DNA of 64,000 nt from NCBI RefSeq assembly GCF_009914755.1, contig NC_060927.1; one strand, given 5' to 3'. Below are positions 10,071 through 38,510 of the stretch, piece after piece. The translations under genes and the position numbers were made by a program. Source of the DNA: the human T2T-CHM13v2.0 reference genome, Homo sapiens. Numbering within the stretch: the stretch's first letter is position 1; every line of letters begins with the position of its first letter. The notes under the pieces were generated by a model, which worked only from the letters and a program-made list of their open reading frames with translations, made no database searches and was not told the DNA's origin.

Positions 10071-12920
10071 TTGCAGTCCCTCTGAATTCCTCCTTCCCTG
10101 ATCCCCTCCCCTTGTCTTTTTTTTTTTTTTTTTTTTTTTTCACCAAACATGTATTGAGTTTCTATCACATTCCAGGCATTTCCTCTTCTTTCCCTGGACC
10201 TGCGTGTCTTTTCTCTTGTTCGTTTGGACCTGGATGTTGTGTGTGTGTGCATGAGCAAGCCTGCCTGGGAGCGTGCCCGTGTGCCCACATTTGGGCATTG
10301 AGGGCTCTCATTCTCCCTAAGGGTGGCCTTGCCTTGTTTTAGCTCAAAGACAGCACTTGGCTTTCAAGGATATATTATAAATAGAGCCTTGACAGCACTC
10401 TCTTTTCTTATCTGAAAACTGACACGAAGCACAGGCAACTAGGACAAAAAGAAAGAGAACAGGGTCCGTGGTGGAGCAGATAATCAATATCTTTAAATGA
10501 TTCGAGAGCAGAAATTCCCAAATGGGAGGTGAGAAGAGACCTGAAAATGACAGCCTGAGGAAGTTTGTTGGGCTCTCCTAGGGAGTGAGTGGTAGGGCGC
10601 GGTGTTTGAAAAAGCAGATTTCATATTTCAATTTGTTACTTAGAAAAATGTCCCCCAAAAGCTGTTATTCTCATAGTACAAACTATAGAAATTAAAGCTG
10701 TCCAGAACCTTTTTGACCTTTGGGATTATGTAAGAGTTATGGCAATTCCCAATGAAACGGGAGGCGGCCTCTGAATTGTGAGAGCTGAGATCATCACCGT
10801 GTATTTTTAGCCATTAGGGATTTGAATCTAAAAAGCTGGAAAACACTGTTTCATAGAGTCTTCAGAAAAGAAGCAAGGCCTAAAAGTTGCAAGGAGTCAA
10901 TGCTTGAAAGGTTCCCATAGAGTTTGAAAAGGCCATAAAACCTAACTCCCCTATTTTACAGATGAGGCAACAAGAGAAGTCGCTGGCACAAGATCTAATG
11001 CTTATAACAGGATTGGCTGAGCCCAGCATCGGCCTCAACCTGCAGTGGGCGGCGGGGGGGGGGTGGGGTATCAGTAGAAAAGACCAGGGAATCTCTGACA
11101 AGTCGTCCTCTGCTCCTAATAAAGAGAATTAAAATGTGCCTTTAGGAGGCTGGGACCAACCCCAGGTCACTAGCTCAATGAGCCTGAAGGATGCAACTGG
11201 GGAGGCATTTGGAACACAAAAGCAGATACTCCTGCTGTTCTAGATGGCTTCCTAAGAGCCAGGGTTCTTCAGGTCGGTCTTTCCAAGGACCTAAAGTAGT
11301 AGGTTGGACAGCAGGGGATGCGGAGGATCAATGAAGCAGCTGTTGGCTTTCGGTGCATATAAATAATGCACCTCTAAGGCCTAGGGTGTGTTTTGGTTAT
11401 TCTATACAACAAATACCCAAAAAGTGTTGGTGACCCTTGGCCTTGCATTTCCCCAGACTCTGACCCACACCCTGACCTTGACCTGACCCTCAGCCTGAAG
11501 CTGACCCTGAACCTAATCCTTTCGCTGACGCTGACCCTGATTTTGAGCCTCCTGTTGAACCATAGCCTCAGCCTGGCCTGCCATTCACTCTGACACAGGA
11601 CATGACCTTGTCCTTCATCCTGTTTCTCACACTACCATGACTCTCAGCTATGCTCACCCAGACTCTGACCCTGACATGGACTCAGATTCTCACCCTCACA
11701 ATGAACTTGTCTATAGGCAGACTCTAACTCTGAGGCTAACCCTATGCTCACCCTGAATCTGATCCTAATCTTGAACCTGACTCTCACCGTGTCCCCGAAC
11801 ATATGGCCCTCACGCTGACTCTGACCCTCACACTTACCCTCTCAATTTAACCCTACCCCTTACCCTGATGCTGACATTGACCTTTATCGTGATGTTGACC
11901 CTGGACATATACCTCACACTCCTTCTGAATCTGACCTTAATCCTCACCATGACATTCACAATTACTCAGATCCTGAATCTGACCTTCATCACGATCTTGA
12001 CCCTGACCTTGATCTAGATACTCACATGACTCTCTTCCTGACTGAACTCTGACCCTTAACCTGAACCTCACACTGATTCTCACCATGACCTGAGCTTGAC
12101 ACTGAACGTGATGCTAAATAAGCACCTGACCCTGAACTTGGCTCTTACCCTGATTCTACCTTCATCCTCACCCTCACCCTGAGCTTTGTCTGACCCTTAC
12201 CTTAATTTTTTCCCAAACCTTAATTTGAACCTGACACTTATCTAATGTTGACTCTGACCCTTACCCCTAACCTACTAGACACTCAGTCTGACACTAATTT
12301 TCATTCTCACACTGGTGTTGACCCATACTCTTACCCTTACCCTTTCACACTCACCTTGAACCTGACCATAAATCTGGCCCTGTCTCTGAACCCCACCCTA
12401 AACTTTAACCTTCAGAAGACCCTGCTCCACACCCTCCCCGTGACTGAGACCCTGAATCTGCCACTGTCTCTCAATTTCTCATCCTCACTCTTACCACAGC
12501 TCTAATACTTATTCTGACCCTTACCCTCACTCTGAATTTGTCCCTAACCCAAAACCTGTCTCTGACACTGACTTTCACCCTGAACCTCACCATAACTCTG
12601 ACCCTTGGACTTTCCCACCCTCATCATGACCCTGATGAAGCTATGACCCTGACTGTAGCCCTTACCCTCACCCTGATATGAACAGTGACTCAATCCCGAC
12701 CCTGACCCAGACCATCACCCTATCATACTGGTCTTAAATTCATCCTCACCCTGAACCTGACCCAAATTCTGACCCTTATCCTTGTCCTGATCATCACTAT
12801 GACCTTGAAAAGACCCTGACACTCACAGTGACCATCAAATGATTCTACTTCACCACTACCCTAACACTTTAGCTGGGCCAGACACTCATCCTCATCAGGA
12901 CCGTTATGTTCATCTGACTC

Positions 12921-13042
12921 TGCTCACCTTGAGTTTACTATGTATTACATGCTCACCTTGAGTTTACTATGTATTACATGCTCACCTTGAGTTTACTATG
13001 TATTACATGCTCACCTTGAGTTTACTATGTATTACATGCTCA
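12921..13042 (+). repeat. 29-bp minisatellite, 4 perfect copies plus 6 nt
   Basis: TGCTCACCTTGAGTTTACTATGTATTACA x4. Confidence 0.95.
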
Positions 13043-13367
13043 ACCAAATCCTCACTCTAAACCTGACCCTGACCTTTATTCTGATGTTCACCCTAAAATT
13101 GGCCCTCATCTGGCCCTCCCTCTTGCTCTCATCTTGTGTCCATGATCCTGCCCCTAAAAGTATCTCTGACTCTGATATCATGCTGACATTGACTCTAACC
13201 ATCCCACCCCTCTAAAGTTACCCTAAACTTAAATTTCAACCTGTCCCTGGTCGTGACCCTGACCAACAACTCAACTTTGACCCTGATCCTGACCGTCAAC
13301 CTGACACTGACTCTCACCAAGACTCTGACATTCACACTGATCATCAAACTGACTATACTGAGTCTGG

Positions 13368-13965
13368 CTTTAAAAAGTTGTGGTAAAATAAATGTAATAT
13401 AAAATTTACCATCTTAAACATTTTAAAGTATACAGTTCAGTGGCACTAAGTACATTCACGTTGTTGTGCAACCAATCTCCAGAACTCTTTTCATCTCACA
13501 AAACTGAAACTCTGTACCCGTTAAATAACAACTCCCTCTTTTTTCCTTTCCCAGACCCTGGCAACCACCATCATAGTTTCTGTCTCTATAATTTTGAGTA
13601 ATCTAAGTATATAGGTGGAATCATACAGTATTTGTCCTTTGGTGACTGGATCATTTCACTTAGTATAATAACCTTGAGATTCATCCATGTAGTAGCATGT
13701 GTCAGAATTCCCTTCCTTTTTAAGGCTGAATAATATTCGGTATATACCACATTTTATTTATCCATTCATCTGTCCATGGACACTTGGGTTGCTTCTACCT
13801 TTTGCCTGTTGTGAATAATGCTTCTATAAACATGAGCGTTCAAGTATCTCTTTGAGACCCTACTTTCAATTCTTCTGTATATATACCTAGAAGTAGAATT
13901 GCTGGATCATCTAGTAATTTTTAATTTTTTGAGGAACCAACCATATTGTTTTCCATAGTGGCTGT
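13368..13965 (-). mobile_element. Old L1 3' end (L1MB-like) inserted in array A
   Basis: AAAATTTACCATCTTAA...TACAGTTCAGTGGCACTAAGTACATTCAC...GGAATCATACAGTATTTGTCC...AGAATTGCTGGATCAT. Confidence 0.85.
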
Positions 13966-16718
13966 GACCCTATCTTTTATGCTGAACTTTACCTGACCCT
14001 GTCCTACATCCTGACCTTAACAATGACCTTCTACCTGATTTTTAACCTGAACTTCACCCTGAATGTGACTATCATGCTGACCCTAACCATGGCACTGTCT
14101 TGACTTTTACCATGTCCTTACACTGTGCTAGAGCCTGACCGTGGCCCATACTATTAACCTCACACTGACCCTGACTCTGTATTTTATACATATACTTACA
14201 TTCACCCTGACTCTCACCTCTCTTTGACCATGACTTAGACCCTGAAATTAACCCCTACCCTGTATCTAAATTTGAACTAGACTTTTACTTTGATCTTTTT
14301 CAGACCTTTACCATGAATCAGACCTCAACTTAACCCTTACCTCACCATGATTTTACCTTCACATTCACCCTGATGTCAAGACTAAAGCTGACCCTTATCC
14401 TCACACAGAACATGACCCTGACCCTCACCATGACCCTGTCCATGATTCTGACCCTGACACGCATCCTGACACCGATTCTGATTCTCACCCTCACAATAAG
14501 CCTGATACTAACCAAGACCCTGATGCATACCTGACCCTATTCTTCATTCTGGCCACCCGATACTTACTCTGATCCTTAACCTAAACCCGCGTGATATTGA
14601 CCCTCTATCTTGTCCCTTATCCTAAACATGACCCTCACACTGACCCTGATTTCCACCCTTATGAAGACCCTGACCCTCAACCTTTCATACTGACTGTCAT
14701 CATCATGATATTATCTCACTCTGACCCTGACCCTAAACTGGACTCTGAATCTGACCCTCAACTTGTTCCTGACCATTATCTTCCCTTTCTCCATTGACCT
14801 TAAATGAAATCTGACCATGATGACACCTTGAAACTGACTGACCTCCCTGCTGCTGAACTTGACCTTTATCTTGTCCCTCAACCTCACCTTAATCATCACT
14901 CTGACCCTGACCAGCACTCTGACATTGATCCTGAACCTTACCTGACCCTAACCTTTACCCTGACACTGACCCTTAACCTGATCCTTATCCTAAACCTGAC
15001 CATAAATTTGAACTTGACCATCAATCTGACCCAGATCATAAATATGAAAACAATTGGGACCCTCACCATATCCCCAAACCTGAGCTGACTGAACTTGATA
15101 CTGACCATAACCCTGACCACCTTCATCCTTACTCTTACCCTGAGTCATATCATGACTCTCACTCTTACCCTGACCCTGACCTTCACACTGAACTGACACT
15201 CAACCTGACTTTGAGTCTCACCATGGCCCTGAGCCTGACTTTGACTTTATCCATGACACTCAGCAAGACTCTGATATTCACTCTAACCTTAACCCTGACC
15301 TGACCATGTCCCTGAGCTTGCTTGTGAACTTTAACCTCTACCTGATCCTCACCCTCTACTTGGCCCTAACCTTATCATGATCCTGGCCCTGATTATCACC
15401 CTGACCTGACCAACATCTTGACCTGATTCTGACACTCAAGCTGACCATGATATGGATACTATTCTCACATCAGCCCTGATCCTCAACTTCACCCAGAGCC
15501 TTGGCCAACTCCAATCTTAATCTTGACCCTGACCCTGATCCTCAACCAGATACTTTTCTGACCTTACCCTGAACTGTTTTGCATCTTGACCTTGACCCTG
15601 ACCCTCACCATGACACCATCCATGATCCTTATCATGTCGCTGAACCTGATCTTGAGTGTGATCTTCACCTTCACCTTGACCTTCACACACAGCCTTACCC
15701 TTCCCCTGACCCTCACCTGAAAGTGATTCTGACCTTGGATCAAATCGTATACTCACCCAGGCCTCATCCAGAATTGGACCTTTATGATGACTCTTATTCT
15801 CACTCTGAACCTGACTTGCACCTAACTCTCATCTTTACCCTTACTCGGATTTGGCCATCACCCTGCATATGACCCACATCTTGAAACTTACCCTTATCCT
15901 TATAGTAATCCTCACTCTGATAGTGACTCACACAAAGACCCTGATATTCATGCTATCACCCTGACTCTACCCTTACCCTGGCCCTGAACTTTACCCTGAA
16001 CCTTAACTGACCCTGACAGTCAACCTAATCTTTCCTCTGAAACCCTCATGCAAACCTTGACCCTAACTGTACCAATGACATTCTCATCAATCCTTCTATT
16101 TCCATATAACTTGACCCTGACCATAACCCCTACACTCACACACACCCACACCGTGACCAACACCTTGACTATGAACTGGACCTTGACTTGTCCCTGAGAC
16201 TCATCCTGATCATGGCCCTTATGCTGACCCTCACAATGACCCTGACCCTCACTTTGACCCTCAATCTAATATTAACCCTTATCTTGAGAATGAAAAGACT
16301 CTGAAGCTGAAGCTTACCCTGAACATCGTCATGACGCAACCCAGACTCTAAATTTTATTCTCACCCTGAACCTATCCCTCACCACATACCTGATATTGGC
16401 TGCCATGCTGACTATGACCCTCCTCACTATTACCATGTCTCTGACCTTGACTTAGAACCCTATCCTCATGATCATCTTGACCCTGAGACTCAGCTAACAC
16501 TGAACGTCACTCTAATCCTCTCACTCACTGTAATCTTGATACAAACCCTAACCTGCACCCTCAAATGTATCATGACCTCACCATGTCCTTGATCCCGTGC
16601 TTGACCTTGTCCCTACCTTCATCCTGACTTTACTCCTCACCATGATCCTGATGCTGATCTTCACCTGCAACCCCAAACTTTCTCTGACCCAGACCCTTAT
16701 ATTTATCAAGTTTCTGAC

Positions 16719-17167
16719 TACAATGATTTGAAAGTTTGTCTCCTCCAAACCTCATTTTGAAATTTGATCCTCAGTGTTGGAGGTGGGGTCTAGTGTAGGT
16801 TGTTTTGGTCATGGGGGTAAATCCCTCATGAACAGATTAATGCCCTTCCTGGAGTATGCAGAGGGAAGGAGGGGAATGAGTGAGTTCTTGCTCTATTAGT
16901 TCCCATGAGATCTGGTTGTTAAAAGGAGCCCGGTACCTCCCCTTCTACTCTCCCTCACTCCCTCTCTCTCCATGTGATCTCTGCACATGTGACTCCCCTT
17001 TGCCTTCTTCTATGAGTGGAGGCAGCCTGAGGCTCTTGCCAGAAGCAGATGCTAGTGCCATGTTTTTTGTATAGTCTGCGGAACTGTGAGCCAATTAAAC
17101 CCCTTTTCTTTATAAATTACCCAGCCCTCAGGTTTTCGTTTATAACAACACAAAATGGACTAAGACA
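16719..17167 (+). mobile_element. MaLR solo LTR (MSTB-like) inserted in array A
   Basis: Typical MST body ending GGACTAAGACA; 5-bp TSD CTGAC at 16714-16718 and 17168-17172. Confidence 0.85.
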
Positions 17168-18043
17168 CTGACCTGGTACTTAGCCCCACCCCCACCACGA
17201 TTAACACCCTGGCACTGTATCTGACTCCCTTACTCTTCAAACATTACTGTCCTTGATAATCAACCTGACCAGACCCTGTTCGTCACGCTGAACCTGATGC
17301 CCTAGCCTTGACCTTTACACCACCCTTACCTTGAACCTGACCCTCACCCTATTGTGATGCCTGATCCTTACAATGACCCTAATCTTTAATTCTTACCTCA
17401 CAACGATGCTGAACCTGATTGGATTCCTCATCCCAACTCACATCTGGATACTCCTCATCTAGATACACACATCATTTCTCCCCTGAACAATGACTGTGCC
17501 TGTGCCTCATCTTCACTTTCACCTTGATCCTGATCCTAAACCTCACCTGGCCTTGAACTTCATTCATACACTGACCCTTATTTGACCTCATTCTTACTCC
17601 AACCCTCATACTGACCCTTATGTTGACCCTGACCCTGACCTTAACCATCACCCTGACACTGACTCTGAAATATACACCCACTCTCACTCTGACCCTGTAC
17701 CAGACCCTCTGCACCTCACCCTATCACTAACCCCCTCACTGACCCTGACCCCCAACTTGATCCCCAAATACACCCTCAGATGCTGATCCTAATACTGATT
17801 GTGATACTGCTCCTGACACTTACCATATCCTAAAGCTCACCATCATCATGACATTTACGCTTAACCTCTCCCTGTCTGTGACCCCCTCTCTCTGACCCTT
17901 ATTGTCACCCTGACCCTTATAATGATTCTGACTCTAATAATGACCTAACCATCACCAAGTTGAGTTTGAACATGAAATCTTATACACTCACACTCTAGTT
18001 TCTTTTGGATTTCTTACTGTTCTCAATAAGAATGTGCTTTTGA

Positions 18044-19157
<1,114 letters not shown>

Positions 19158-19602
19158 GAATTTTCTTTAGAGACAAGTGTCTGATTTTTTCTTTAATGCT
19201 AGTCTGTTCACATAAATACAATTTTCAATGATATCTGCTTTAACTCGCAAGAAATTACTGTTGAGGACAGTGTGTAAATATGAACTCATTTTCACATATA
19301 TAGCATAGGTTCCTCTTATCTTGTTCTGATTCACAGGAAGAAATTGTAATCAAGATGAATATGAGTTTCTGAGTTTTTTGGAGTCAAATAAATCTTAAAT
19401 ACATCTTGGTTTAGGCAAACAGAGGTAGCATTGAAAACAATCTGTATTAGTGCATATAAGCTCAGTTTCAGACATTCCTCTCAAAAGAAACTTTTTATTG
19501 CTTCTTAGGGTAAACTGAGATGGACATAAGCACATATGAGTATGTGTCATTCATTGCAAAGGCACAGCCCTACTGTAAGGGACAACAATAAGGACGAGTC
19601 TA

Positions 19603-19854
<252 letters not shown>

Positions 19855-19989
19855 TTAGCATCAGCAAACTCAGTTTTAGACATTCCTCTCAAAAATATCT
19901 CCTTATTGTTTCCTGCAGTAAACTAAGATGAATGTAAGAAGAACAACACATATCCATCTAAAAGGTGTATTCTTTTTTTTCAAGGTAGG

Positions 19990-20990
<1,001 letters not shown>

Positions 20991-21899
20991 AACAGAGCAA
21001 AGGAGAATGAATCTAAGTAGTAGTATTAAAAAGAATTTGTAGTAGTACAATCAGGCTCGGCCTCAGACATTCCTATTAGAAGTCCTTATTGCTTCTCAGA
21101 GTAAAGCAAGATAAATGATAAGACAGTAAAATACATATCAAAGGCACATTCTTACTAGAAAGAAAAAAGATAAAAATACACTGTTTATTAAACCTCATTT
21201 TAATTGTCTCTTCCTTCTTAAAATGTCAGTGGGTTAACAAAATATGTAAATGCCTTTGGATAATAAGACATATTTGTGTATATTTGCCTTCTCAAAGCTT
21301 TTAATTAACATGAGATAAATGCTCATGAAAAATTACCTAGGCAGTTTTTTACTTTCTATCCTGTAGATGTCTCCTATGTCTGGAGGAAAAAAAAAGAAAG
21401 AAAAGAATTATTCCCTTAATTAGAGATAGTAATTAACAAAGACAGTTCGTTATACTAGGTACAAGGATTGCAGAGAGATACAGGTATGTATATATAGGAT
21501 TTTCTGTTTGTATATTTTTAAAAGTTGTGTAGTTCACTCATATAATAAATTTAATATAATACATACTGCTTTATTTAGTATACTGACAATTATGCTTTAA
21601 AGCTATAGTTTAAAACTTTAAATTATTACCTATTTATATTTGTATGTCTTGATGCATACAAAAAGGGAATATATCCTTTACTACAATTTGTTATATAAAT
21701 AATATACCAAAAGAATAAAATTAGAATTTAGGTCTTTTGCATGAGGTGACTTATTTTATGCCCAGGTCAACAGAGGTTCCTTTTTTTGTCAACAAATTGT
21801 TCTACTGCTTTTGTATTCTCTACAACTATCATCAGAGATTCCCTTGGATAACCTTGACCTAATTTTATTTGATCAAAGTTAAAATGCTATCATGGAGTG

Positions 21900-23030
21900 A
21901 AATTCACCCTTAAAACATAGACAACTTCCAGAAATTAAATCAGTTCAGATAACTAACATCATTGTCCTTATCTGGGCTTGACAGCTCACAAATAAATAAA
22001 TAAGCAATTATTTATGCTGATAGTAAATGTGTTTTGGGGGTAGTCCACAAATTCAGAATTGTTTAGAAACAGAGATGTTTCTAACCTTGAAAAAAAAAAC
22101 TTACACCAATTAAATGACAAATTAAAGAACTTTTAGATGCTTTGCTATTACCTAAGAAAACAGCTATCATAAAAACACAGTCATTGAAAAGACAAGACCT
22201 AGAAACTCATGGTAATGCTTTGGCTGGCCCCTATGCTAAACAAACAATATTAACCTAGATAAACAGTCCTATCATCACACGGACAAGAAAAGTCTTGGAG
22301 AAATTCAGAGAGGCTGTTGCTAACTGTCAGAAACAAGTCTCTAATTCAATTTAGGATGATCATTAGATGATCACCAGGATGGTCAACTGAGCGTGCCTCA
22401 ACACTTGAAAATGGAGCTTAACGAAAATTCTTCATGATGTAACCATAAAGGAACGATAAGTTGACAACAATATTAGACCAACACTGGTGGCTTAATTTTA
22501 GATGTAGCTGCCAAGGATGTGTTTGAAAATGTGTCTTATCTGCCAGTGACACATCCTGATAAACTGCCAAGGTGGGCTCATGGACAGGAATCAAAGCCTC
22601 TATGCCCCTTTAAATACCTCCAAATGGACTTCATACAAATACCTTTTACAATGAATTATAAATATGTTTTGCTCATTGTGTATTTATTCTCAGGGTGGAC
22701 TGAAGTTTTTCCTTGCTGGAAAGCTATTCCATGCTGGGTTGGGGGTTGAAAGGGTTCAGGGGATGGCTTGGTTTTGTTTTCCCACCTGGGGAATTCCCAT
22801 TTATCTCTCCAATGACAGAGGTGCTCATTTTACTAGAACTGCACTGAAGTACTTTTACACAGAAACTTCACTGTCCTTATCATCTGTAGTCCTCAAGATG
22901 AACAGAGAGAACGAATGGAATTTTATAACTAAAATTAGCAAAGCTCTCAAAACCTCTTAAACTCCCATGGCAGAAAGCATTACTATTAGCTTTCATATCT
23001 AAAATCAACCCTCTCTAGGGTCCTTATTCT
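21900..23030 (+). mobile_element. Decayed class I (ERV1, gamma-like) pol remnant: RNase H plus integrase
   Basis: IYADSKCVLGVVH at 22010 (cf. IYTDSRYAFGVVH), HGNALAGPYAK, PFKYLQMDFIQIP...FSGWTEVFPC, WGIPIYLSNDRGAHF; multiple stops and frameshifts. Confidence 0.85.
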
Positions 23031-23046
23031 GCAAGGATGAAAACTC

Positions 23047-24110
<1,064 letters not shown>

Positions 24111-24361
24111 ATTACAGTAGGTGCCGGCATTTTAAAATATGAACAAATAAAATTAGGTCAACACTATCCAAAGGAGTCTCAAAAGAATGGTTGAAGAATA
24201 TGCAAAAAGCATTGAGAATTAACAGAATAATTTGGTGACAAAAGAAACCTCTATTGATCTGGGGATAAAAATATTTGGTAAATTTACATGGAAGACCTAA
24301 ATTCTAATTATTCACTTGGCAAATTATTTATGTAACAAATTGTAGTAAAGGAACTATTGAT

Positions 24362-24397
24362 ATTGCTTGTCCGCCTTTTGGCTAAGATCAAGCGTAG
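24362..24397 (+). pseudogene. 3'-truncated (tailless) U2 snRNA retropseudogene
   Basis: ATTGCTTGTCCGCCTTTTGGCTAAGATCAAGCGTAG vs U2 5' end ATCGCTTCTCGGCCTTTTGGCTAAGATCAAGTGTAG; flanking direct repeats AGGAACTATTGAT / AGGAGCTATTGAT. Confidence 0.9.
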
Positions 24398-24769
24398 GAG
24401 CTATTGATATACATTTATTTGTATGAATTTAGGCAGACACACGTGTACAAACATAAAAATAGGTTTCTGACTATTGAAAATACATTTATCCTCTGCATAG
24501 ACTTTTATCTCTGCAATCTTTATACTCAGTTTAATCAATATCTACATTAATTACTATCTTTAAGTAAGTAATCAGTCTGTTTTTTTTCTCTAGACATAAG
24601 GAAAACCCAGGGGACAGAAAGTTTAAAACCATCCAACTTATTTGTTCATAAGAATTTATCTTCCAGTATTTTAAAATTTTGAAAAGGCAAAAACAAGGGA
24701 TCCAGCCCTGGTCATGCTGACTTCGCAGCTTCTGTGCGTATCTATGCACTCAACTTGTCAGTGTCCTTG

Positions 24770-25000
24770 TGTCAAAGACCCCCTAGGCACATACCTGAGA
24801 TGAATAAATTGGGCTTATTATGGCTTGCATTGGGGGAGAATGCACACCACTGGGAACTACAGGGTGTCTCAGTAAAAAGGCGTCAGAAAGTACCTGTTAT
24901 AGAATGTAATCTTTTGTTGGGTGACTTGGGGAAGGGTCTAAGGAAGTGAGGGTTTTGCTCTAGATTTGGTATTGTTAGAAAGTGGAGCTAATTCTAGATT
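24770..25000 (-). mobile_element. Old LTR fragment
   Basis: GGAGAATGCACACCACTGGGAACTACAGGGTGTCTCAGTAA resembles old ERVL-type LTRs; family uncertain. Confidence 0.45.
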
Positions 25001-25684
25001 AGCTATTTTGTGGATATACAACACATTATTAAATAATAAAGTGTTTAACTATAGCCTTAAAATAGAATTTATCAGTATATTAAATAAAACAATCTATATC
25101 AAATTAAATTATTATGTGAATTAACTGCAATAACTTTAAAAAAACTAATAAGAAATCAATTAGAAACTCTTTCTGTAATTCTTATACCCTATATAATCAA
25201 CCATCTACATTAATTATTATCTTGAATTAATCAGCCTTTTCTTTCTTTTTCTGTAGACATAAGAGACACCTAGAGGACAGAAAGTTAAAAACCATCTGGG
25301 TCATTTTTTAATAAGCATTATCTTATATTAATTAAAAGTTTTGAGAAGGCAAATACAAGCATATATGTATTATCATCCAAGGCATATTTTGTTAATTCAC
25401 TGATAATTTAATAAATAAGGGTCAGTTAAAATATGGCTTATATGTGGTCTTTTGTATATTTTTTTATTTTAGTAAGAATGCGCCTTTGAAAGTAGTATGT
25501 TTTGCTGTCCTTATGTTTATGTCAGTTTACTCTAAAAAGCAATAAGAAGTTTCATTTGAGAGTAATGTGTAAGAAGGCTGAGCTGGTTTGCCCCAATATG
25601 AATTTTTTTCAATATTACTTCTGTTTGCCAACCTAAACTCAGATATATATATATACATTGTGTACCTGACCTTACACAATGAGT

Positions 25685-26679
25685 ATCGGTCAGATTCAGG
25701 GTGAAGGTCAGTGTCAGAGTCTGTATGAGGATAGGCATCAGGGACGTAGTGACGGATAAGTTCAGGGTAAGGGTGAGTGTCAAGGTTGGGTCATGGTGAA
25801 ATTCAGAGTAAGTTTCAATATAAGGATCAGCATCAAGTGGAGTGTTACAATGAAAGGATCAGGATAAGTCTCAGGCTCAGCTTCAAGGTCAGATCAACAT
25901 CAGGTGAGGGTCAGTATCAACATTAGAAAAGATCAGGGATGGGGTCAGGGTCAGGGTTAGGTTAAGGATAAGGATGAGGATTGAAATAATTGTCAGGCTA
26001 AGTAAGCAAGGGTCAAGGTCAATGTGAGAATAGGATGAGTGGTAATGTCAAATGCAGGGTGAACTTGAGTGTCTGGTTTAGAGAAAGAGTAGGAATTAGG
26101 GGTCAGAGGTGGGTGAGTTTGCGTGTCAGGTTCATGGTCAGAAGTAAAGTCAGTGTGAGGCTGAAGGTCAAGGTCAGAGTCAGGTGCAAGACAGGGTTAT
26201 TGTGAGATGAGAGGGAGATTCTGAGTCAGTATATGTGTAAGGGTAAGGCTCACAGTTATAAAAATGGTGAATCTGACAATAAAATTCAGGGAGAAAATCA
26301 GGGTTAGATTCAGGGTAAAGTCAGCTCAGAGTCAGCATGAGGATCAGAGGAAGGGCCAAGGACAAGTGATGGTCATAGACAGGATCAGGGTCAGAGAGCA
26401 TCAGGATAAGCATAAGGATAAGGTTAAGGGTGAGTGTATATGTCAGAGAAAGTGTCAGCTTGATAGTCAGGGTCAGCGTCAGGCTGAGGGTCAAGGTCAG
26501 CCAGCATCATGGTGAAGGTCAGAGTGAAGGTTAGGGTCAGGAAAAGTCCAGAGTCAAGTGCAGGATTAGGGTCAGTGTAAGAGTATTATCTGGGTCAGAG
26601 TCAGCTTCAGGATCACTGTCTAGGTCAGGGTGTTTTCAGAACAGGATGATAATTGAGGTTCTGGGCACAGTCAGGGTCA
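25685..26679 (-). repeat. Array B: same degenerate hexamer in opposite polarity (GGGTCA on +)
   Basis: e.g. GGGGTCAGGGTCAGGGTTAGG near 25941; many GGTCAG/GGTGAG/GGTAAG units. Confidence 0.9.
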
Positions 26680-26682
26680 AGT

Positions 26683-28385
26683 TGACCCCTCAAACTTAAC
26701 CTGACACTCAGCCTGACACTGAGCCTGAAACTCATGTCTGTTAACATGACTCTTGCCCTAATGGTAGCTCTCATCCTCACCAAGACACTGCAGTTCATGA
26801 ACGGAGTGAATGTCAGGGACATAGTGGTCATATGTCCATTTACTCTTGACCCTCATGTGCGTCTGACCTTCATAGTGACCCTCACTAGGACCTTGCCTTG
26901 ACCTAGAATTTTGCCCTCATGCTGTCCATCCTGACCCTGCACCTGACCCTGATGCTCACCCACACCAAGACTCTATTCCCCACCATGACCCTGAGGCTGA
27001 TCCCACCCACACCCTCTACATTACTCTCACCCAGACACTCACCCTCACCATGTCCCTGACACCTCACTTGACCTCAACCCACATCCTAACTCCGGCACTC
27101 ACTGTGACACTCACCCTGACACTGAATCCGACCCGCATCTTCACCTTAACCTTAACCTGTCCTTTACCCTCATCTTTACCATCAGCCTAACCCTGATCCT
27201 CATCCTCACACTAACTCTTACCCTCACGTTCCCAGTGGCACACTTTGACCCTGACCCTTACCTTGACTCTCTTCTCACTCTGACCTTCACACGCGTTTTG
27301 ACCCTGACCCATTCCCTGACTGATCTTGACCTTGATCTGTATCTTGACCCTCACCCTGACCCTGATCTTGACCTTGACCTGACTTGGCACTGACCCTCCA
27401 TGTGACCCCAACCCTAACCATGGCCGTGACTCTGACCTTTGTTCTGAGATCTTGAGCCTGACCCTTACTCTGATCTTGATACTCATCCTCCCCCTTCTCA
27501 TGATCCTTACCCTCAAATCTGACTCAAACCTGATGTCACCCTGACACTGTCTCTCATCCCCCAACCCTTGTACCTTACTTGACCCTGCCCTACCTCTGAC
27601 CATCACCCTGACTTTGATCCTGATGCTGACTCTGACCCTGACACTACCCCTACCCTGAACCTGACTCTCACCCTACCTTTACCCTGACCATGACCTTGAC
27701 TGTGATCTAAATCACACATGGACTCTTACCTCATGTTGACACTGAAACTGACTCTGACCCTCATCCTGACTTGGACTCTCACCCCTACCCTTCCCTGAAC
27801 AATGACTCTTATCCTAAACCTCACTGTCACTCTCATGTTGACTATGATCCTAACCCTTATCCTGGCCCTGACACTGACTTTCAGCCTCCTTTGAACGTTG
27901 ACTCTTACTTGTCCCCATTGACCATGACCCTGACAGTGACCTCAATCCTCAACCTGACCCTGTCCCTGGCACTGACAACTATACTAAAACTGACCCTGAA
28001 ATGTACACTGGCCTTCATCTTGACTCTGACCTTAACCCTCTGATACTGATCCTGAATCTGTACCTGACCCTTCTTTACCTTCATTGTGACACTAAACCCT
28101 TCACTGGCCTCAACTTCATCCTGACCCTCATCATGAAATTGAAGCTTACTCTCACCATGATATTGATCCTGACCCCCAGCTGCACCCTGTCATGACCCTT
28201 TCCCTGACCCTCATCATGACCCTGAGTTGAATCTTACTTTTACCCTACACCTGACACCTGATCCTTATGCAGAGTTGATCCTAACCCTGACCAGAGCTGC
28301 ATTGACTCTGATTGTGACCTTCAACTACACCCTAACCATGACATGCACCCTCATCACTAAGCTGAGTATGACCATGATCTATGCA
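26683..28385 (+). repeat. Array C: degenerate (CCCTGA)n array, C-rich on +
   Basis: Same unit spectrum as array A; begins directly at the polarity switch. Confidence 0.9.
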
Positions 28386-29779
28386 CACACATTCTAGTTT
28401 CATCTAGATCTTTTGTAACTTGCAATATGAAAATAATTTTCAGAATTATGGACATTTACCAACTTGCCTAAACTTTTGCTGCTTATTTTCAAATATACTG
28501 CTTTGATTCATGTTAATATGATCTATTACAATGAGGTAAAAAATATAAACAAATATATAGTGGCTATTACTACTCTTTTTTGTTACTTTGGCAAATTATC
28601 CCTATGGCAGTCGATGAATTAGAGGGCTAAAAATGTAAACTTTCCCAGGATTCCAAACTGATTCTAGCACCCTAAAAGGGCCTCCTGGCTGGCCAAGGAG
28701 ACTGCTGTTGTGCTTGGCTCCACCTACTGCCTCTTGTCTTTACTACCTTTTCCCTGGCAGGTGCCGGGTGGGGTAAGCCAGCTGGCTGCACAATCCAGGC
28801 AGTGAAGAATGGTGGGTGGCACAGCATACAGACCACAAGGATGTGGTCACAGTTCTTGGCTCATGGCTCACAGCTATGGATCCAAGTGTCATGGCCATCA
28901 CAATGGATCCTTTTAGCATCATTTTCTTAAATAAAAGGTATTACAAAGACTATACACTGGTTACTGCTTATTGTGGTTGCTCTGCCAATGGATCTCCATA
29001 GAGAATGACCATACACATATTAGCCATACCTTATAAGAGCAAAAGAGATAAATGATCAGGGTACTTTCATGGTCTCCCACAGAAGAAAGCTAGCAAGCAA
29101 ACCTGTTCTTATGTTTTCAGTAGCTATTTTCATAAAAGCTATTTTTAGCAATTGGAAAATTGGTTTTATAGGCCACAGAGTTATGTATCTTATAAAATAG
29201 AAATCAAAATCAGAAATTACTTACAGAGGTGGTATAAACCTTTGAGAGTTCATGTTGGATAAGGTTTTCATTGATAACTGCTTCCCGAGAAAATGCCACT
29301 GAACTAAACAAGCAACTGACTAAGTGGGGGAAATATCCCTAAGATTACAGAGTACTCCCTATGTGCCAGACACAGCCCCAGGGTGCTGTGGCACAAAGGA
29401 GTTAGTCTAGTACCGTATAATCACTATGAGAAAAAGACTGATATTTCTGCATGCAGCAATTCACAAGAAGAGGCAATGGTAAGGGTGGAAGAAAGACAAT
29501 GGACTGACTGTTCTTTGTCATAATCATTGTTTCTTGACTGCACTCCTTTTTCCTCCTTACCAGGGGAAATGAGACCAGTAAGAAATGAGGCAAATAAGTT
29601 AAGAAATTAGGACAAAGGAAAAGAAATGGTAATGATTGTTTATATATATATTTTATATATACACTTCATATATAATATGTAGTTACATATAGTTATATAT
29701 TATATTGTTATACATACCTTAACAAAATATATGTTGATATATATAAAGATTGTTTATATACATATGTGTGTATATATAA

Positions 29780-30050
29780 TTTTTTTTAAAGACAGGGTCT
29801 GTCACCCAGGCTGGAGTGCAGTGGTGCAATAACATCTCACTACAGCCTCAGTCTCCCCAGGCTCAGGTGATCCTACCACCTCAGCCTCCCAAGTAGCTGT
29901 GACTATGGGCACGTGCCACTATACCTGGCTAATTTTTTATTTTTTTAAATAGAGATGGGGTTTCACCACGTTGTTCAGGCTGGTCTAAAACTCCTGGGCC
30001 CAATCGAGCTGTCCACTTCACCCTCCCAAAATCCTAAGGTTATAGGTGTA
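29780..30050 (-). mobile_element. AluJ after a TA-rich tract
   Basis: CCCAGGCTGGAGTGCAGTGG, CCCAGGCTCAGGTGATCC. Confidence 0.9.
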
Positions 30051-30447
30051 ATGATTTGTTTTTAAAAGGAACCTTTTCTAGATAGATAGACTCTGTTTTA
30101 AACTTGTCAAGTGAGTTAACAATTTTTAATCCTTCACTACAAATACTGTGCCTGCATGTTGCATATAAGGAATTGATGTTGCTGAGACATTTCTGAGTTG
30201 GTTTTAAGCTCTATCATCAACAAAATAAATGACTATTTCTTTTGCAACCATAAGCACCATAGCTCTGAATGGGCAAGACAGAGAGTTTCACGATTAAACT
30301 ACCAAAACCTAAGAAAGACAGATGCAATATAGAGTACTTTACGCTACATAGGACAAAAGAGTGAAAGCAGAAGTAAATGAAAACTGCTACAAAGCCATGA
30401 AATCAAGGAAGCTGCCAACAAAAGATCATTTAAGAAAGAAAAAAATG

Positions 30448-30982
30448 ATATACCTAAAGGATTATAAATCATTCTACTATAAAGACACACACACGTATGT
30501 TTATTGCAGCACTATTTACAATAGCAAAGACTTGGAACCAACCCAAATGCCCCTCAGTGATAGACTGGATAAAGAAAATGTGGCATATATATACCTTGGA
30601 AACTGTGCAGCTATAAAAAAGAATGAATTCATGTCCTTTGCAGGGACATGGATAAAGCTGGAAGCCATCATTCTCAGTAAACTAACACAGGAACAGAAAA
30701 CCGAACACCACATGTTCTCACTCATAAGTGGGAGTTGAACAATGAGAAGACATGCATATAGGGAGGGGTACATCACACACTGGGGCCTGTCATGGGGGTG
30801 CGGGTGCAAGGGGACGGATAGCCTTAGAAGAAATACCAAATGCATGTGGGGCTTAAAACCTAGATGATGGCTTCATGGGTGCAGCAAACGACCACAGCAT
30901 GTGTATACCTATGTAACAAACCTGCATATTCTACACATGTATCCCAGAACTTAAAGTAAAATGAAAAAAAAAAAAAAAAAGG
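30448..30982 (+). mobile_element. L1PA 3' end (ORF2 C-terminus, 3' UTR, polyA)
   Basis: KNEFMSFAGTWIKLEAIILSKLTQEQKT ORF2 tail; ACCTATGTAACAAACCTGC; A-tail; TSD-like GAAAGAAAAAAT. Confidence 0.95.
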
Positions 30983-31511
30983 AAAGAAAAAAATCTATTG
31001 GCAAAGTTGACCTTAACAAGGGTAGATGTCCCAAGCTTGCTTCGTTGTAAGAATTACTGGAGACACTTGTTCAACAGCGAGAACTCCCACACATCTTGGA
31101 ATAATTCTAATTTCACTCCATATGTGATCTACACACATCAGCAGCTCTAAGAACTCCCATTTTAAAAAAAACATTTTAAAATGAAAAAAGAGACAAAAGA
31201 AGGAATTCTGCTAAGTTACACTGGGTTCACCACTTAAATAACTGGTGGCAAGTGTCTGAGTGTGAATCCTGAAGTTTGACATCACTCAGTCTTGAAAAAT
31301 TAGTTTACCATAACAAAAGCTTGACACATTATTTTGCTTTGTTCAAGACCAAATTTAAAACGTAAAATTATACATGTATTACGTTGTTTTTAACTAAATG
31401 ACATAGCAGTGGTTGTCTTCTTAAATGGTTAAGTTTTATAATATTTTATATTAATACAATTCGTAAAGATTTAATATATTAACTTAATTGTAATTTCTAG
31501 ATTCGTAACTA

Positions 31512-31832
<321 letters not shown>

Positions 31833-32575
31833 ACTTAAGCCCAATTCAATTAATAAATTACCCTTAAATGCTTGTAATTTCTAAAAGAAAAAATACAAAA
31901 ACTGCTGGCTAAATATAATTTTAACTTACCCTTATTAAAACATCAGTAGACTAATAAAATATAAAAATACCTTTGGGTGCTAATACATAGATGTTTGATT
32001 TTGCGTTTTTAAATTTTTAAAATAATGGGAGATAAATGCTCATTAAAAATTAGAGCATGGTTTTTAACTGTTTCCCCTTTGGGTGTCCCTTATGTCTAGA
32101 GAAAAAAAGAAAAGACTGCTTACTTTAAAGATGCTAATTATTTTGGTATAGTTCATAAAAGTAATCCATTACATCCAGAATATTTACTGCAACAATTCTA
32201 CAATGAATTGATTACATTCTAGGGTCTGCTTGTTGAGCTGACACAGTGAGTTCAGGTCCTAGTACTCTATAGGATTACTTTGAGTTCATCTGCTTATGTT
32301 TCTACCTCCCTCATTACACTATGAGCCTCACAATGGCAGAGAATGAAATTATCTTTGTATTCCCTATTCCAAATTTAGCCCCGATACACAGTAGGCACTC
32401 AGTATTGTATAATGGAAAGAGGCAAAGAGAAGAATGGAATATTCTATGCAGTTTATTTACCTTCTTCCCCTAGGCATGAAGTTTTATTAATAATGAGATA
32501 ATTGACCTAATGATGCAATGCTAGAATTGCTGGACTTACTTATAGGAGGAAACTTGCATGAATATCACGAGAATG

Positions 32576-37049: not shown

Positions 37050-37593
37050 GTATATAGATATATATATAATATATATACACACACACCTTTATATGGGTAT
37101 ATATATATATATATATACACATTTATATGGGTATATATATATACACATTTATATGGGTATATATATATACACATTTATATGGGTATATATATATACACAT
37201 TTATATGGGTATATATATATACACATTTATATGGGTATATATATATACACATTTATATGGGTATATATATATACACATTTATATGGGTGTATATATATAT
37301 TTATATGGGTGTATATATATATATGGGTATATATATACACACCTTTACATGGGTATATATATATATACCTTTATATGGGTGTACATATATATATATACCT
37401 TTATATGGGTGTGTGTATATATATATATATATATACACACACCTTTATATGGGTATATATATATAAATGTGTATATATACATACACATATATATACATTT
37501 ATATATATATACCCATATAAAGGTGTGTATATATATATATATATTTATGTACCCATATAAAGGTATATATATATACACACCCATATAAAGGTG

Positions 37594-37636
<43 letters not shown>

Positions 37637-38449
37637 CCATATAAAGGTATATATATATATATATATATATACACAAAAAGGTATATATACCTTTTATATA
37701 TATATATACCTATACTTTTATAGGTATATAAAGATATATATATATAACTTCTATATTTTGACAGACAAAACACAAAGAATATATAATGATATACCCATAT
37801 AAAGGTGTATATATATGTGTGTATATATGTATGTATATATAATATATAGCTATATGTATGTATATATACATATATATCTATATGTATGTATATATACATA
37901 TGTATATATATCTGTATGTATATATATACATATGTACATGTATCTATATGTATGTATATGTGTATATGTATATATATCTATATATAGTCACATAAAGATA
38001 TATATATAAAGGTGTATATATATATAAAGGTGTATATATATACTTTTATATGGGTATATAGTTATATATTCTTTGTGTTTTGTCTATCAAAATATAGAAG
38101 GTATATATATATACCTTTTATATACGTATAAAAGTATAGGCATATATATATAAAAGGTATATATATACACACCTATATATCTATTTTATATATATATATA
38201 CCTTTTATAGATATATATAAATATATATATTTTATAGGTATATATAGGTATATATAAATATATAGATATATATATTTTATAGGTATATATTGGTATGGAT
38301 ATATATATACAACTTTTATAGGTATATCTATAAAGGTATATATATATATACACACCTATATAAAGGTGTATCTATACACACACACACACCTTATATATAG
38401 AGAGAGGTGTGTATACACACACATATATATATACTCCTCTCTCTCTCTC

Positions 38450-38510
<61 letters not shown>
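37050..38510. repeat. Complex AT-rich micro/minisatellite with internal inversions and long pure (TA)n
   Basis: CACATTTATATGGG(TA)n units, then ACCCATATAAAGG units; pure TA runs near 37598-37632 and 38456-38510. Confidence 0.95.

What the first reader, a model, noticed from the sequence alone, without database searches (positions are those of the whole stretch)
26674..26688. Head-to-head array junction GGGTCA-AGT-TGACCC: fusion-like polarity and a perfect ERE
Seen: G-rich array B switches abruptly to C-rich array C at a palindrome with 7-bp arms and a 1-nt centre. Established: (TTAGGG)n followed by (CCCTAA)n is the polarity of an end-to-end telomere fusion, as at the human chromosome 2 fusion site; GGTCAnnnTGACC is the consensus estrogen response element (IR3). 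Inference: either a fossil telomere-type fusion or fold-back scar, or an inversion breakpoint inside one array. It also creates an IR3 nuclear-receptor site. A short G-rich patch at about 26800-26830 suggests a second micro-inversion.
Basis: partly seen in the sequence, partly recalled or inferred. Interest (0 to 1): 0.7.

Follow-up and report, generated by a model that had tools for sequence, protein, structure and literature searches.

The report
Old inverted-duplication joint, not telomere fusion
The flip between two telomere-like repeat stretches on human chromosome 3 is real, but it likely marks the joint of an ancient local back-to-back duplication rather than two fused chromosome ends, and the oestrogen-receptor-type site at the joint is likely a by-product.

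Summary
The 15-bp palindrome, the G-to-C polarity switch at 26681-26684, the 26790-26830 patch and the perfect ERE are real. A telomere fusion is not supported: the arrays are decayed TCAGGG/TGAGGG, not TTAGGG (81 of 865 units carry the telomeric base), B and C are not mirror images, and MAGI1-SLC25A26-LRIG1 adjacency is old. Instead, the non-repeat flanks of arrays A, B and C are 64-81% identical paralogues lying +, -, +. The repeated unit is array + retrovirus-like remnant + a copy of the promoter region of a chr12 Forkhead gene (FOXN4 by recall). B|C is the head-to-head joint, ~23865 the tail-to-tail joint, of a probably 70-100-My-old inverted triplication. Random joins give such a palindrome in 0.8-3% and an ERE in 0.4% of trials; hairpins at the other polarity borders suggest later template-switch polishing. 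The ERE is one of 2218 in the genome; binding untested. The unannotated ~8 kb array with 164 nuclear-receptor half-sites is the more interesting object.

The parts
26674..26688 (.). 15-bp palindrome (7-bp arms, 1-nt centre) = head-to-head joint; holds perfect 13-bp ERE 26675-26687
25679..26684 (+). Array B, G-type decayed (TCAGGG/TGAGGG)n, array of the inverted middle copy
26685..28379 (-). Array C, C-type on +, array of the third copy
11434..17996 (-). Array A, C-type on +, array of the first copy; interrupted at 13369-13966 and 16701-17167 by dispersed repeats
26790..26830 (+). G-type patch in array C, bounded by a 10-bp palindrome (26793-26802) and a 7-bp-arm hairpin (26817-26837); template-switch-like micro-inversion
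25656..25681 (.). 9-bp-arm hairpin with a C-type 8-nt loop at the outer border of B
17950..18085 (+). End of array A plus tail, homologous to end of C plus tail
   Evidence: 66% identity, E 1e-9; alignment
28352..28490 (+). End of array C plus tail
19396..19590 (+). Locus-specific ~150-bp unit, inverted copy at 25456-25651 abutting B, further copies 19845-19975 and 21016-21170
21016..23040 (+). Flank of copy 1: AT-rich block and old retrovirus-like remnant with dispersed relatives on chrX, chr1, chr2, chr7
24089..25622 (-). Flank of copy 2: inverted paralogue of 21016-21935, with an internal partial duplication and a later dispersed-repeat insertion (~24770-25010)
31288..32260 (+). Flank of copy 3: same retrovirus-like block, split by an Alu
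23336..23872 (+). Decayed copy of the CpG-island promoter at chr12:109,284,683-109,284,085 (Forkhead gene, FOXN4 by recall)
23862..24084 (-). Inverted second copy of part of that promoter; tail-to-tail joint at ~23862-23872; holds the 5' end (23963) of predicted lncRNA LOC107986095
   Evidence: hub annotation
28579..31267 (+). Blocks homologous to DNA upstream of the same chr12 promoter (109,285,252-019, then 109,288,647 to 109,286,350 in order), split by Alu and L1

Best explanation
The junction at 26681-26684 is where two oppositely oriented copies of one old unit meet head to head, and it was likely made by an ancient local inverted duplication (net order +, -, +) rather than by a chromosome-end fusion. 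Shown: three arrays of the same decayed TCAGGG/TGAGGG hexamer, each with paralogous non-repeat DNA on the same side (tail, retrovirus-like block, pieces of a chr12 promoter region); copy 2 is inverted, giving a tail-to-tail joint at ~23865 and this head-to-head joint. Inferred: a piece of the chr12 Forkhead-gene promoter region was copied into this SLC25A26 region next to a then nearly uniform hexamer array; replication template switching (fold-back on a repeat that offers microhomology everywhere) triplicated the unit with the middle copy inverted; deletions eroded the unstable palindromic arms; the arrays then decayed independently for about 70-100 My. Inferred: the tight 7-bp palindrome, and with it the ERE, is either a chance survivor or was perfected later by a short template switch, like the hairpins at 25656-25681 and 26793-26837. 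The ERE may well be bound where ESR1 is expressed and chromatin is open, but nothing shows it is selected.
For: Inverted paralogy of flanks: 21016-21648 vs 25622-25013 (71%, E 8e-92), 21283-21925 vs 24691-24089, 19396-19534 vs 25651-25506 (77%); B's flank vs C's flank 25196-25501 vs 32156-31852 inverted (70%, E 3e-37); A end vs C end direct (66%, E 1e-9). Ungapped identities c1-c2 81%, c2-c3 76%, c1-c3 74%, chrX relative 70-75%. chr12 blocks map to copy 1 (+), copy 2 (-) and copy 3 (+), nhmmer E 1e-51 to 6e-4; the only other genomic hit for 23336-24100 is chr12:109.284 Mb; no array in 20 kb at the chr12 source or at the other flank relatives. Same position weight matrix in A, B and C with CpG-decay couplings as the strongest dependencies. 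DNA left of A and right of copy 3 has no long paralogue. Inverted triplications have this geometry and lose arm DNA secondarily (PMC10766186, passages); template switches make inverted repeats with inverted spacers (PMC5453318, passages).
Against: The copies are fragmentary and unequal: copy 3 lacks the 150-bp unit, copies 1-2 lack the chr12 upstream blocks, one chr12 block in copy 3 is out of order, and c1-c2 are closer than c3, so more than one event (or gene conversion) is needed. In the shared block the window copies are only slightly closer to each other (74-83%) than to the chrX relative (72-77%), so independent insertion of the retrovirus-like piece is not excluded on identity alone; 29150-29629 also has a chrX relative. 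No collinear similarity between the array bodies (0 of 10 pairs above the shuffle maximum). No clear short inverted repeat at the 23865 joint (best 5-bp arms). No outgroup mammal could be examined. The origin of the array itself is unexplained, as is its excess of C (24%) and deficit of A (9%) at position 5.
Confidence: 0.7

Rival explanations
1. Direct tandem triplication first, then a separate later inversion of the middle copy (24084-26684); the palindrome is an inversion breakpoint.
For: Gives the same +,-,+ order. A younger junction would explain why a perfect palindrome survives amid ~33% decay (0.8-3% by chance).
Against: Both breakpoints must fall on unit borders; no C-type array remnant is seen at 24084 (and 15 segmentation). 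The promoter is duplicated across the left joint in inverted form, which a plain inversion does not make.
Confidence: 0.13
2. The unit began at an ancient chromosome end (variant-repeat array plus inter-chromosomal duplicon, a subtelomere-like patchwork) and was copied into 3p14; B|C is a fold-back or joining of two such copied ends, without any fusion of whole chromosomes.
For: In all three copies the G-strand runs away from the flank, as at a telomere; TCAGGG and TGAGGG are the known proximal variants (PMC3518223, passages); the array's best look-alikes are chromosome ends and subtelomeric repeats; one of these (L008) is TCAGGG-dominated, 36 vs 10 TTAGGG; a mosaic with a chr12 duplicon is subtelomere-like (recalled).
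Against: Look-alike hits are expected from hexamer content alone; no block structure of variants (lag-1 identity 0.343 vs 0.347 expected); almost no TTAGGG over ~8 kb; flanks match none of 9 telomeric/ITS loci outside Alus.
Confidence: 0.1
3. Fossil end-to-end fusion of two chromosomes, as at 2q13.
For: Head-to-head polarity with homologous inverted flanks.
Against: 2q13 has 56 TTAGGG vs 5 TCAGGG, here 6 vs 35; a decayed TTAGGG array should keep ~85% A at position 5, observed 81 of 865. The joint lies inside the annotated SLC25A26 span; a MAGI domain lies 0.72 Mb to the left; lrig1, slc25a26, magi1 are consecutive in gar, eel and arowana (PMC5645911) and share one 4.5-Mb interval of sheep chr19 (PMC12717993). 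A third copy (A) is unexplained. Head-to-head polarity arises without fusion: chr9:140,361,362 and a horse ITS (PMC7215372).
Confidence: 0.03
4. The palindrome is kept by selection as a working oestrogen response element for SLC25A26 or LOC107986095 (compatible with any origin).
For: Perfect 13-bp consensus, 0.4% under random joining; perfect EREs are the most strongly bound class, 1,202 of them in one ER experiment (PMC6542189, passages); 2.7 kb from the lncRNA start.
Against: 2218 perfect 13-mers and 132 GGGTCAnnnTGACCC in the genome, fewer than the reversed controls (3584, 236); RefSeq lists no element here; arrays show methylation-type decay; other borders also carry hairpins that are not EREs.
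Confidence: 0.08

Closest known systems
Inverted triplication (TRP/INV, DUP-TRP/INV-DUP; ODIRA model, PMC10766186)
   Same: Three copies with the centre one inverted, one head-to-head and one tail-to-tail joint, arms eroded by deletion.
   Different: Fixed and ancient (64-81% identity), ~21 kb, built on a hexamer array and a chr12-derived duplicon; single-event origin not shown.
2q13 telomere-fusion ITS
   Same: G-type array followed by C-type array with a short palindrome at the switch.
   Different: Unit TCAGGG/TGAGGG not TTAGGG, far more decayed, flanks are local paralogues, no gene-order break.
Telomere variant repeats and subtelomeric ITS (C-type TCAGGG bound by COUP-TF2/TR4, PMC3518223, PMC7691514)
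   Same: Same hexamers; dense RGGTCA half-sites with DR0 and DR6 spacing.
   Different: Interstitial, ~8 kb, only ~8% of units intact, no TTAGGGTTA.
Short template-switch mutations (PMC5453318)
   Same: Inverted repeats with an inverted spacer at 25656-25681 and 26793-26837; new inverted repeat at 26674-26688.
   Different: No outgroup sequence, so the switch points cannot be assigned.
Consensus estrogen response element (IR3)
   Same: Perfect GGTCAnnnTGACC.
   Different: Arises from array geometry; occupancy and function unknown.

Membership tests
Telomere-fusion ITS (2q13 type) | Head-to-head G-array then C-array | tested here: met
Telomere-fusion ITS (2q13 type) | Arrays derived from TTAGGG | tested here: not met
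   6 CCCTAA vs 35 CCCTGA in B+C; 81 of 865 units with A at position 5; 2q13 56 vs 5
Telomere-fusion ITS (2q13 type) | Subtelomeric repeats flank both arms | tested here: not met
   no non-Alu match of the flanks to 9 telomeric/ITS loci of ~3 kb; ancient subtelomeres need not resemble modern ones
Telomere-fusion ITS (2q13 type) | Synteny break at the site | tested here: not met
   gene level only: and hub annotation; base-level orthologues not available
Telomere-fusion ITS (2q13 type) | Vestigial second centromere | not tested
   not examined
Short ITS (telomerase insertion) | At least four near-perfect TTAGGG units | tested here: not met
   no TTAGGGTTA in any array; none of the 10 human chr3 rows of the PMC7215372 list is near 66 Mb (list excludes degenerate arrays)
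Inverted triplication (TRP/INV) | Three copies, centre inverted | tested here: met
Inverted triplication (TRP/INV) | Two opposite inversion joints | tested here: met
   26681-26684 and ~23862-23872
Inverted triplication (TRP/INV) | Joints at short interrupted inverted repeats | tested here: inconclusive
   7-bp palindrome at one, only 5-bp arms at the other
Inverted triplication (TRP/INV) | Single event (equal age of copies) | tested here: inconclusive
   81% vs 74-76% identity; unequal content
Inverted triplication (TRP/INV) | Single-copy ancestral state in outgroups | not testable with these tools
   no mammalian relatives held
Recent fold-back palindrome | Mirror identity outward from the centre | tested here: not met
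   power
Estrogen response element | Perfect GGTCAnnnTGACC | tested here: met
Estrogen response element | ESR1 occupancy and oestrogen-dependent effect | not testable with these tools
   no ChIP or reporter data
Template-switch micro-inversion | Inverted repeat(s) around a spacer of reversed polarity | tested here: met
   borders and hairpins are not independent observations
Template-switch micro-inversion | Difference from an outgroup explained by one switch | not testable with these tools
   no primate orthologue

The most novel reading that the evidence does not exclude
The ~21-kb composite is a stranded piece of an ancient chromosome end that now acts as the largest interstitial landing pad for COUP-TF/TR4-type receptors in the human genome (164 half-sites, 20 DR0, 18 DR6), with an ERE at its centre; a copied FOXN4 promoter drives TERRA-polarity RNA through array A and read-through RNA across B|C folds into a long imperfect hairpin, and in ALT cells the locus contacts or receives telomeric DNA.
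Probability: 0.1. Interest if true: 0.75.

Novelty: new member of a known kind. Interest (0 to 1): 0.33.

Why it matters
As flagged, little: it removes a false 'second chromosome-fusion site' and shows that head-to-head polarity alone is no proof of fusion. What remains is an unmasked, apparently undescribed ~8 kb array of telomere-variant-like repeats with 19-26 times the background density of nuclear-receptor half-sites, tied to an old inter-chromosomal copy of a transcription-factor promoter that overlaps the start of a predicted lncRNA. If receptors bind it, it is a natural test site for the NR2C/NR2F-telomere link and an example of promoter duplication seeding a lncRNA.

Tried and rejected
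Mirror fold-back: four 300-nt mirror windows scored no better than random array-A windows (fractions of 300 nulls as good: 0.98, 0.87, 0.08, 0.48); shared-variant alignment 0 of 10 pairs above 20 shuffles; that test missed the short shared A/C end seen and in simulation has power only when about 35-50% of the decay is shared. Coding origin (the C-strand reads Thr-Leu with wobble-like variation): rejected, 16-19 phase shifts per kb, mostly -1, longest open stretch 153 codons. Higher-order repeat or blocks of variants: none. Array carried by the retrovirus-like element: no array in the 7 fetched regions (6 around flank relatives, 1 upstream on chr3), at chr12 or chrX:82.47 Mb. Structured RNA families: only Alu-type hits and a weak U2 hit in 9000-34000. 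Other head-to-head TCAGGG junctions were not searched for directly; the four-unit pattern gave 221 matches of which only the first 100 were listed, mostly at chromosome ends. Look-alike loci at chr21:44.51, chr20:54.92 and chr19:0.68 Mb were not read. Literature: no paper with GGGTCA + SLC25A26, interstitial telomeric + 3p14 + variant repeat or LOC107986095; searches listed nothing on this locus by title or abstract start. The library lacks most subscription papers and bioRxiv supplements, so absence is weak evidence.

Full report
Observation. The sequence at 26674-26688 is a perfect palindrome with 7-bp arms round a single base, and the arms stop there. A fourth-order Markov model trained on array A alone places array B (G-type on +) at 25679-26684, array C (C-type) at 26685-28379 and a short G-type patch at 26790-26830; array A (11434-17996) has no such patch. 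The site is the window's only perfect GGTCAnnnTGACC. In 20,000 simulated head-to-head joins of real array pieces, arms of 7 or more arose in 0.8% (loop up to 1) or 3.0% (loop up to 5), a perfect ERE in 0.4%.

What the arrays are. In phase, 1196 units give C.56 C.58 C.63 T.86 G.51 A.85, alike in A, B and C. Among 865 units with T and A intact, position 5 is G 464, C 208, T 112, A 81. A decayed CCCTAA array should keep about 85% A there, as position 6 does, so the ancestor was TCAGGG with some TGAGGG, not TTAGGG. The true fusion site at chr2:114,027,640 has 56 TTAGGG to 5 TCAGGG; B plus C have 6 to 35. The strongest dependencies between positions are CpG loss, phase shifts come every ~55 nt: long neutral, methylated, non-coding decay. 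Genome searches with three array pieces returned mainly chromosome ends, subtelomeric repeats and a few short interstitial hits, none longer than about 1 kb (counts are lower bounds).

Mirror test. B and C do not align as mirror images, and no pair of arrays shares variants collinearly (0 of 10 above shuffles). Simulation shows the test would have seen copies that shared half their decay (scores 80-166 against 14-18 observed), partly at 35% (18-49), not at 20%. A recent fold-back is excluded; an old one, made when the array was nearly uniform, is not.

The flanks decide it. Non-repeat DNA beside the arrays is paralogous: 21016-21648 with 25622-25013 (inverted, 71%), 21283-21925 with 24691-24089, 19396-19534 with 25651-25506 next to B, B's flank 25196-25501 with C's flank 32156-31852 (inverted, 70%), and the end of A with the end of C (direct, 66%). 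Part of the flank is an old retrovirus-like remnant (weak integrase hit, E 0.014, under the cut-off) with relatives on X, 1, 2, 3 and 7 that carry no array. Unexpectedly, 23336-23872 (+) and 24084-23862 (-) are copies of a CpG-island promoter at chr12:109.284 Mb, and 28579-31267 holds blocks of the DNA upstream of it, four in order and one displaced (66-77% ungapped identity). A Forkhead domain lies 22 kb downstream of that promoter on the same strand; the name FOXN4 is my recall. No array exists in the 20 kb read at chr12. DNA left of A and right of copy 3 has no long paralogue. The region 11434-32260 is therefore a unit of array, tail, chr12-derived DNA and retrovirus-like DNA present three times, +, -, +, with a tail-to-tail joint near 23865 and the head-to-head joint at B|C. 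Against neatness: the copies are unequal in content, copies 1 and 2 are closer (81%) than copy 3 (74-76%), and the chrX relative is not much further (70-75%). Divergence of 25-30% suggests 70-100 My at a recalled neutral rate; this is inference.

Mechanism. This geometry is that of an inverted triplication, whose palindromic joints are unstable and lose arm DNA (PMC10766186, passages). I infer replication template switching, helped by a repeat that offers microhomology everywhere, possibly in more than one step. Every polarity border carries a hairpin: 9-bp arms round a C-type loop at 25656-25681, a 10-bp palindrome and a 7-bp-arm hairpin round the patch. These match the products of short template switches, inverted repeats with inverted spacers (PMC5453318, passages), so the central palindrome may have been perfected the same way; hairpins and borders are not independent observations, and none is unusually stable (z -1.4 to -2.0).

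Fusion. Besides the wrong hexamer, the joint lies inside the annotated SLC25A26 span, a MAGI domain lies 0.72 Mb to the left, lrig1, slc25a26 and magi1 are consecutive in gar, eel and arowana (PMC5645911, passages), and all three fall in one sheep chr19 interval (PMC12717993, one table row). PMC7215372 (passages and supplement rows) names 2q13 as the only human fusion ITS, describes a horse ITS made head-to-head by inversion and inverted duplication, and lists no chr3 ITS near 66 Mb. The pattern search found one other head-to-head TTAGGG site, chr9:140,361,362, a 48-bp insert between 15-bp direct repeats: polarity without fusion. A softer version, that the unit came from an ancient chromosome end, stays open (one subtelomeric repeat is TCAGGG-dominated).

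ERE and receptors. The genome holds 2218 perfect 13-mers and 132 GGGTCAnnnTGACCC. Perfect EREs are often bound (1,202 in one experiment, PMC6542189, passages), so occupancy is plausible, but function is untested. The arrays hold 104 and 60 RGGTCA half-sites (15.9 and 22.2 per kb against 0.85 in 47 kb of other window DNA), 20 DR0, 18 DR6 and no TTAGGGTTA; TCAGGG repeats bind COUP-TF2 and TR4 (PMC3518223, PMC7691514, passages). The predicted lncRNA LOC107986095 starts in the inverted promoter copy and would read array A as its G-strand. RNA across B|C is predicted to form one long imperfect hairpin (-343.7 kcal/mol, z -3.35, 0 of 20 shuffles; inside C -119.3).

Verdict. Real feature, ordinary class: the head-to-head joint of an ancient inverted duplication. 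Ten literature searches showed no description of the locus, within a library that lacks most subscription papers. No mammalian outgroup or ChIP data could be examined. Interest 0.33, carried by the surrounding array and promoter copy rather than by the 15-mer.

Noticed in passing
L029:1500-1547 (chr9:140,361,362): Short head-to-head (TTAGGG)n/(CCCTAA)n insert with a perfect palindromic centre between 15-bp direct repeats; one of only two such sites in the genome by the pattern used.
   Followed up: partly
window 24362-24400: 5' fragment of U2 snRNA inserted in copy 2 (Rfam E 0.0068, below gathering score).
   Followed up: partly
window 22400-23000: Broken integrase-like remnant of an old endogenous retrovirus-like element (Pfam rve E 0.014) with relatives at chrX:66.43, chr1:109.68, chr2:98.21 Mb.
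   Followed up: partly
window 21270-21440, 24525-24705, 25195-25375, 31985-32160: A ~170-bp block present four times (74-83% alike) and once on chrX; it holds the 43-nt LOC107986095 exon 21337-21379, and by eye the other copies keep an acceptor-like pyrimidine tract and AG.
   Followed up: partly
arrays A, B, C position 5: Unexplained excess of C (24%) and deficit of A (9%) without clustering; the C-strand profile also resembles the branch-point motif yUnAy (recalled), probably a coincidence of AT-biased decay.
   Followed up: partly
window 12921-13042: Perfect 29-bp x 4.2 tandem repeat inside array A, a recent expansion.
   Followed up: no
window 37051-38510: 1.46-kb degenerate TA tract, a possible cruciform or fragile spot.
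   Followed up: no
L032 (chrX:82,470,350-82,470,820): Isolated relative of window 29150-29629 and of the chr12 upstream DNA, no array nearby.
   Followed up: partly
chr21:44,512,385; chr20:54,923,607; chr19:681,201; chr4:6,079,758: Interstitial TCAGGG-like stretches seen; not read.
   Followed up: no
window 19250-19501: Weak self-inverted stretch (E 3e-4), perhaps an old miniature DNA transposon.
   Followed up: no
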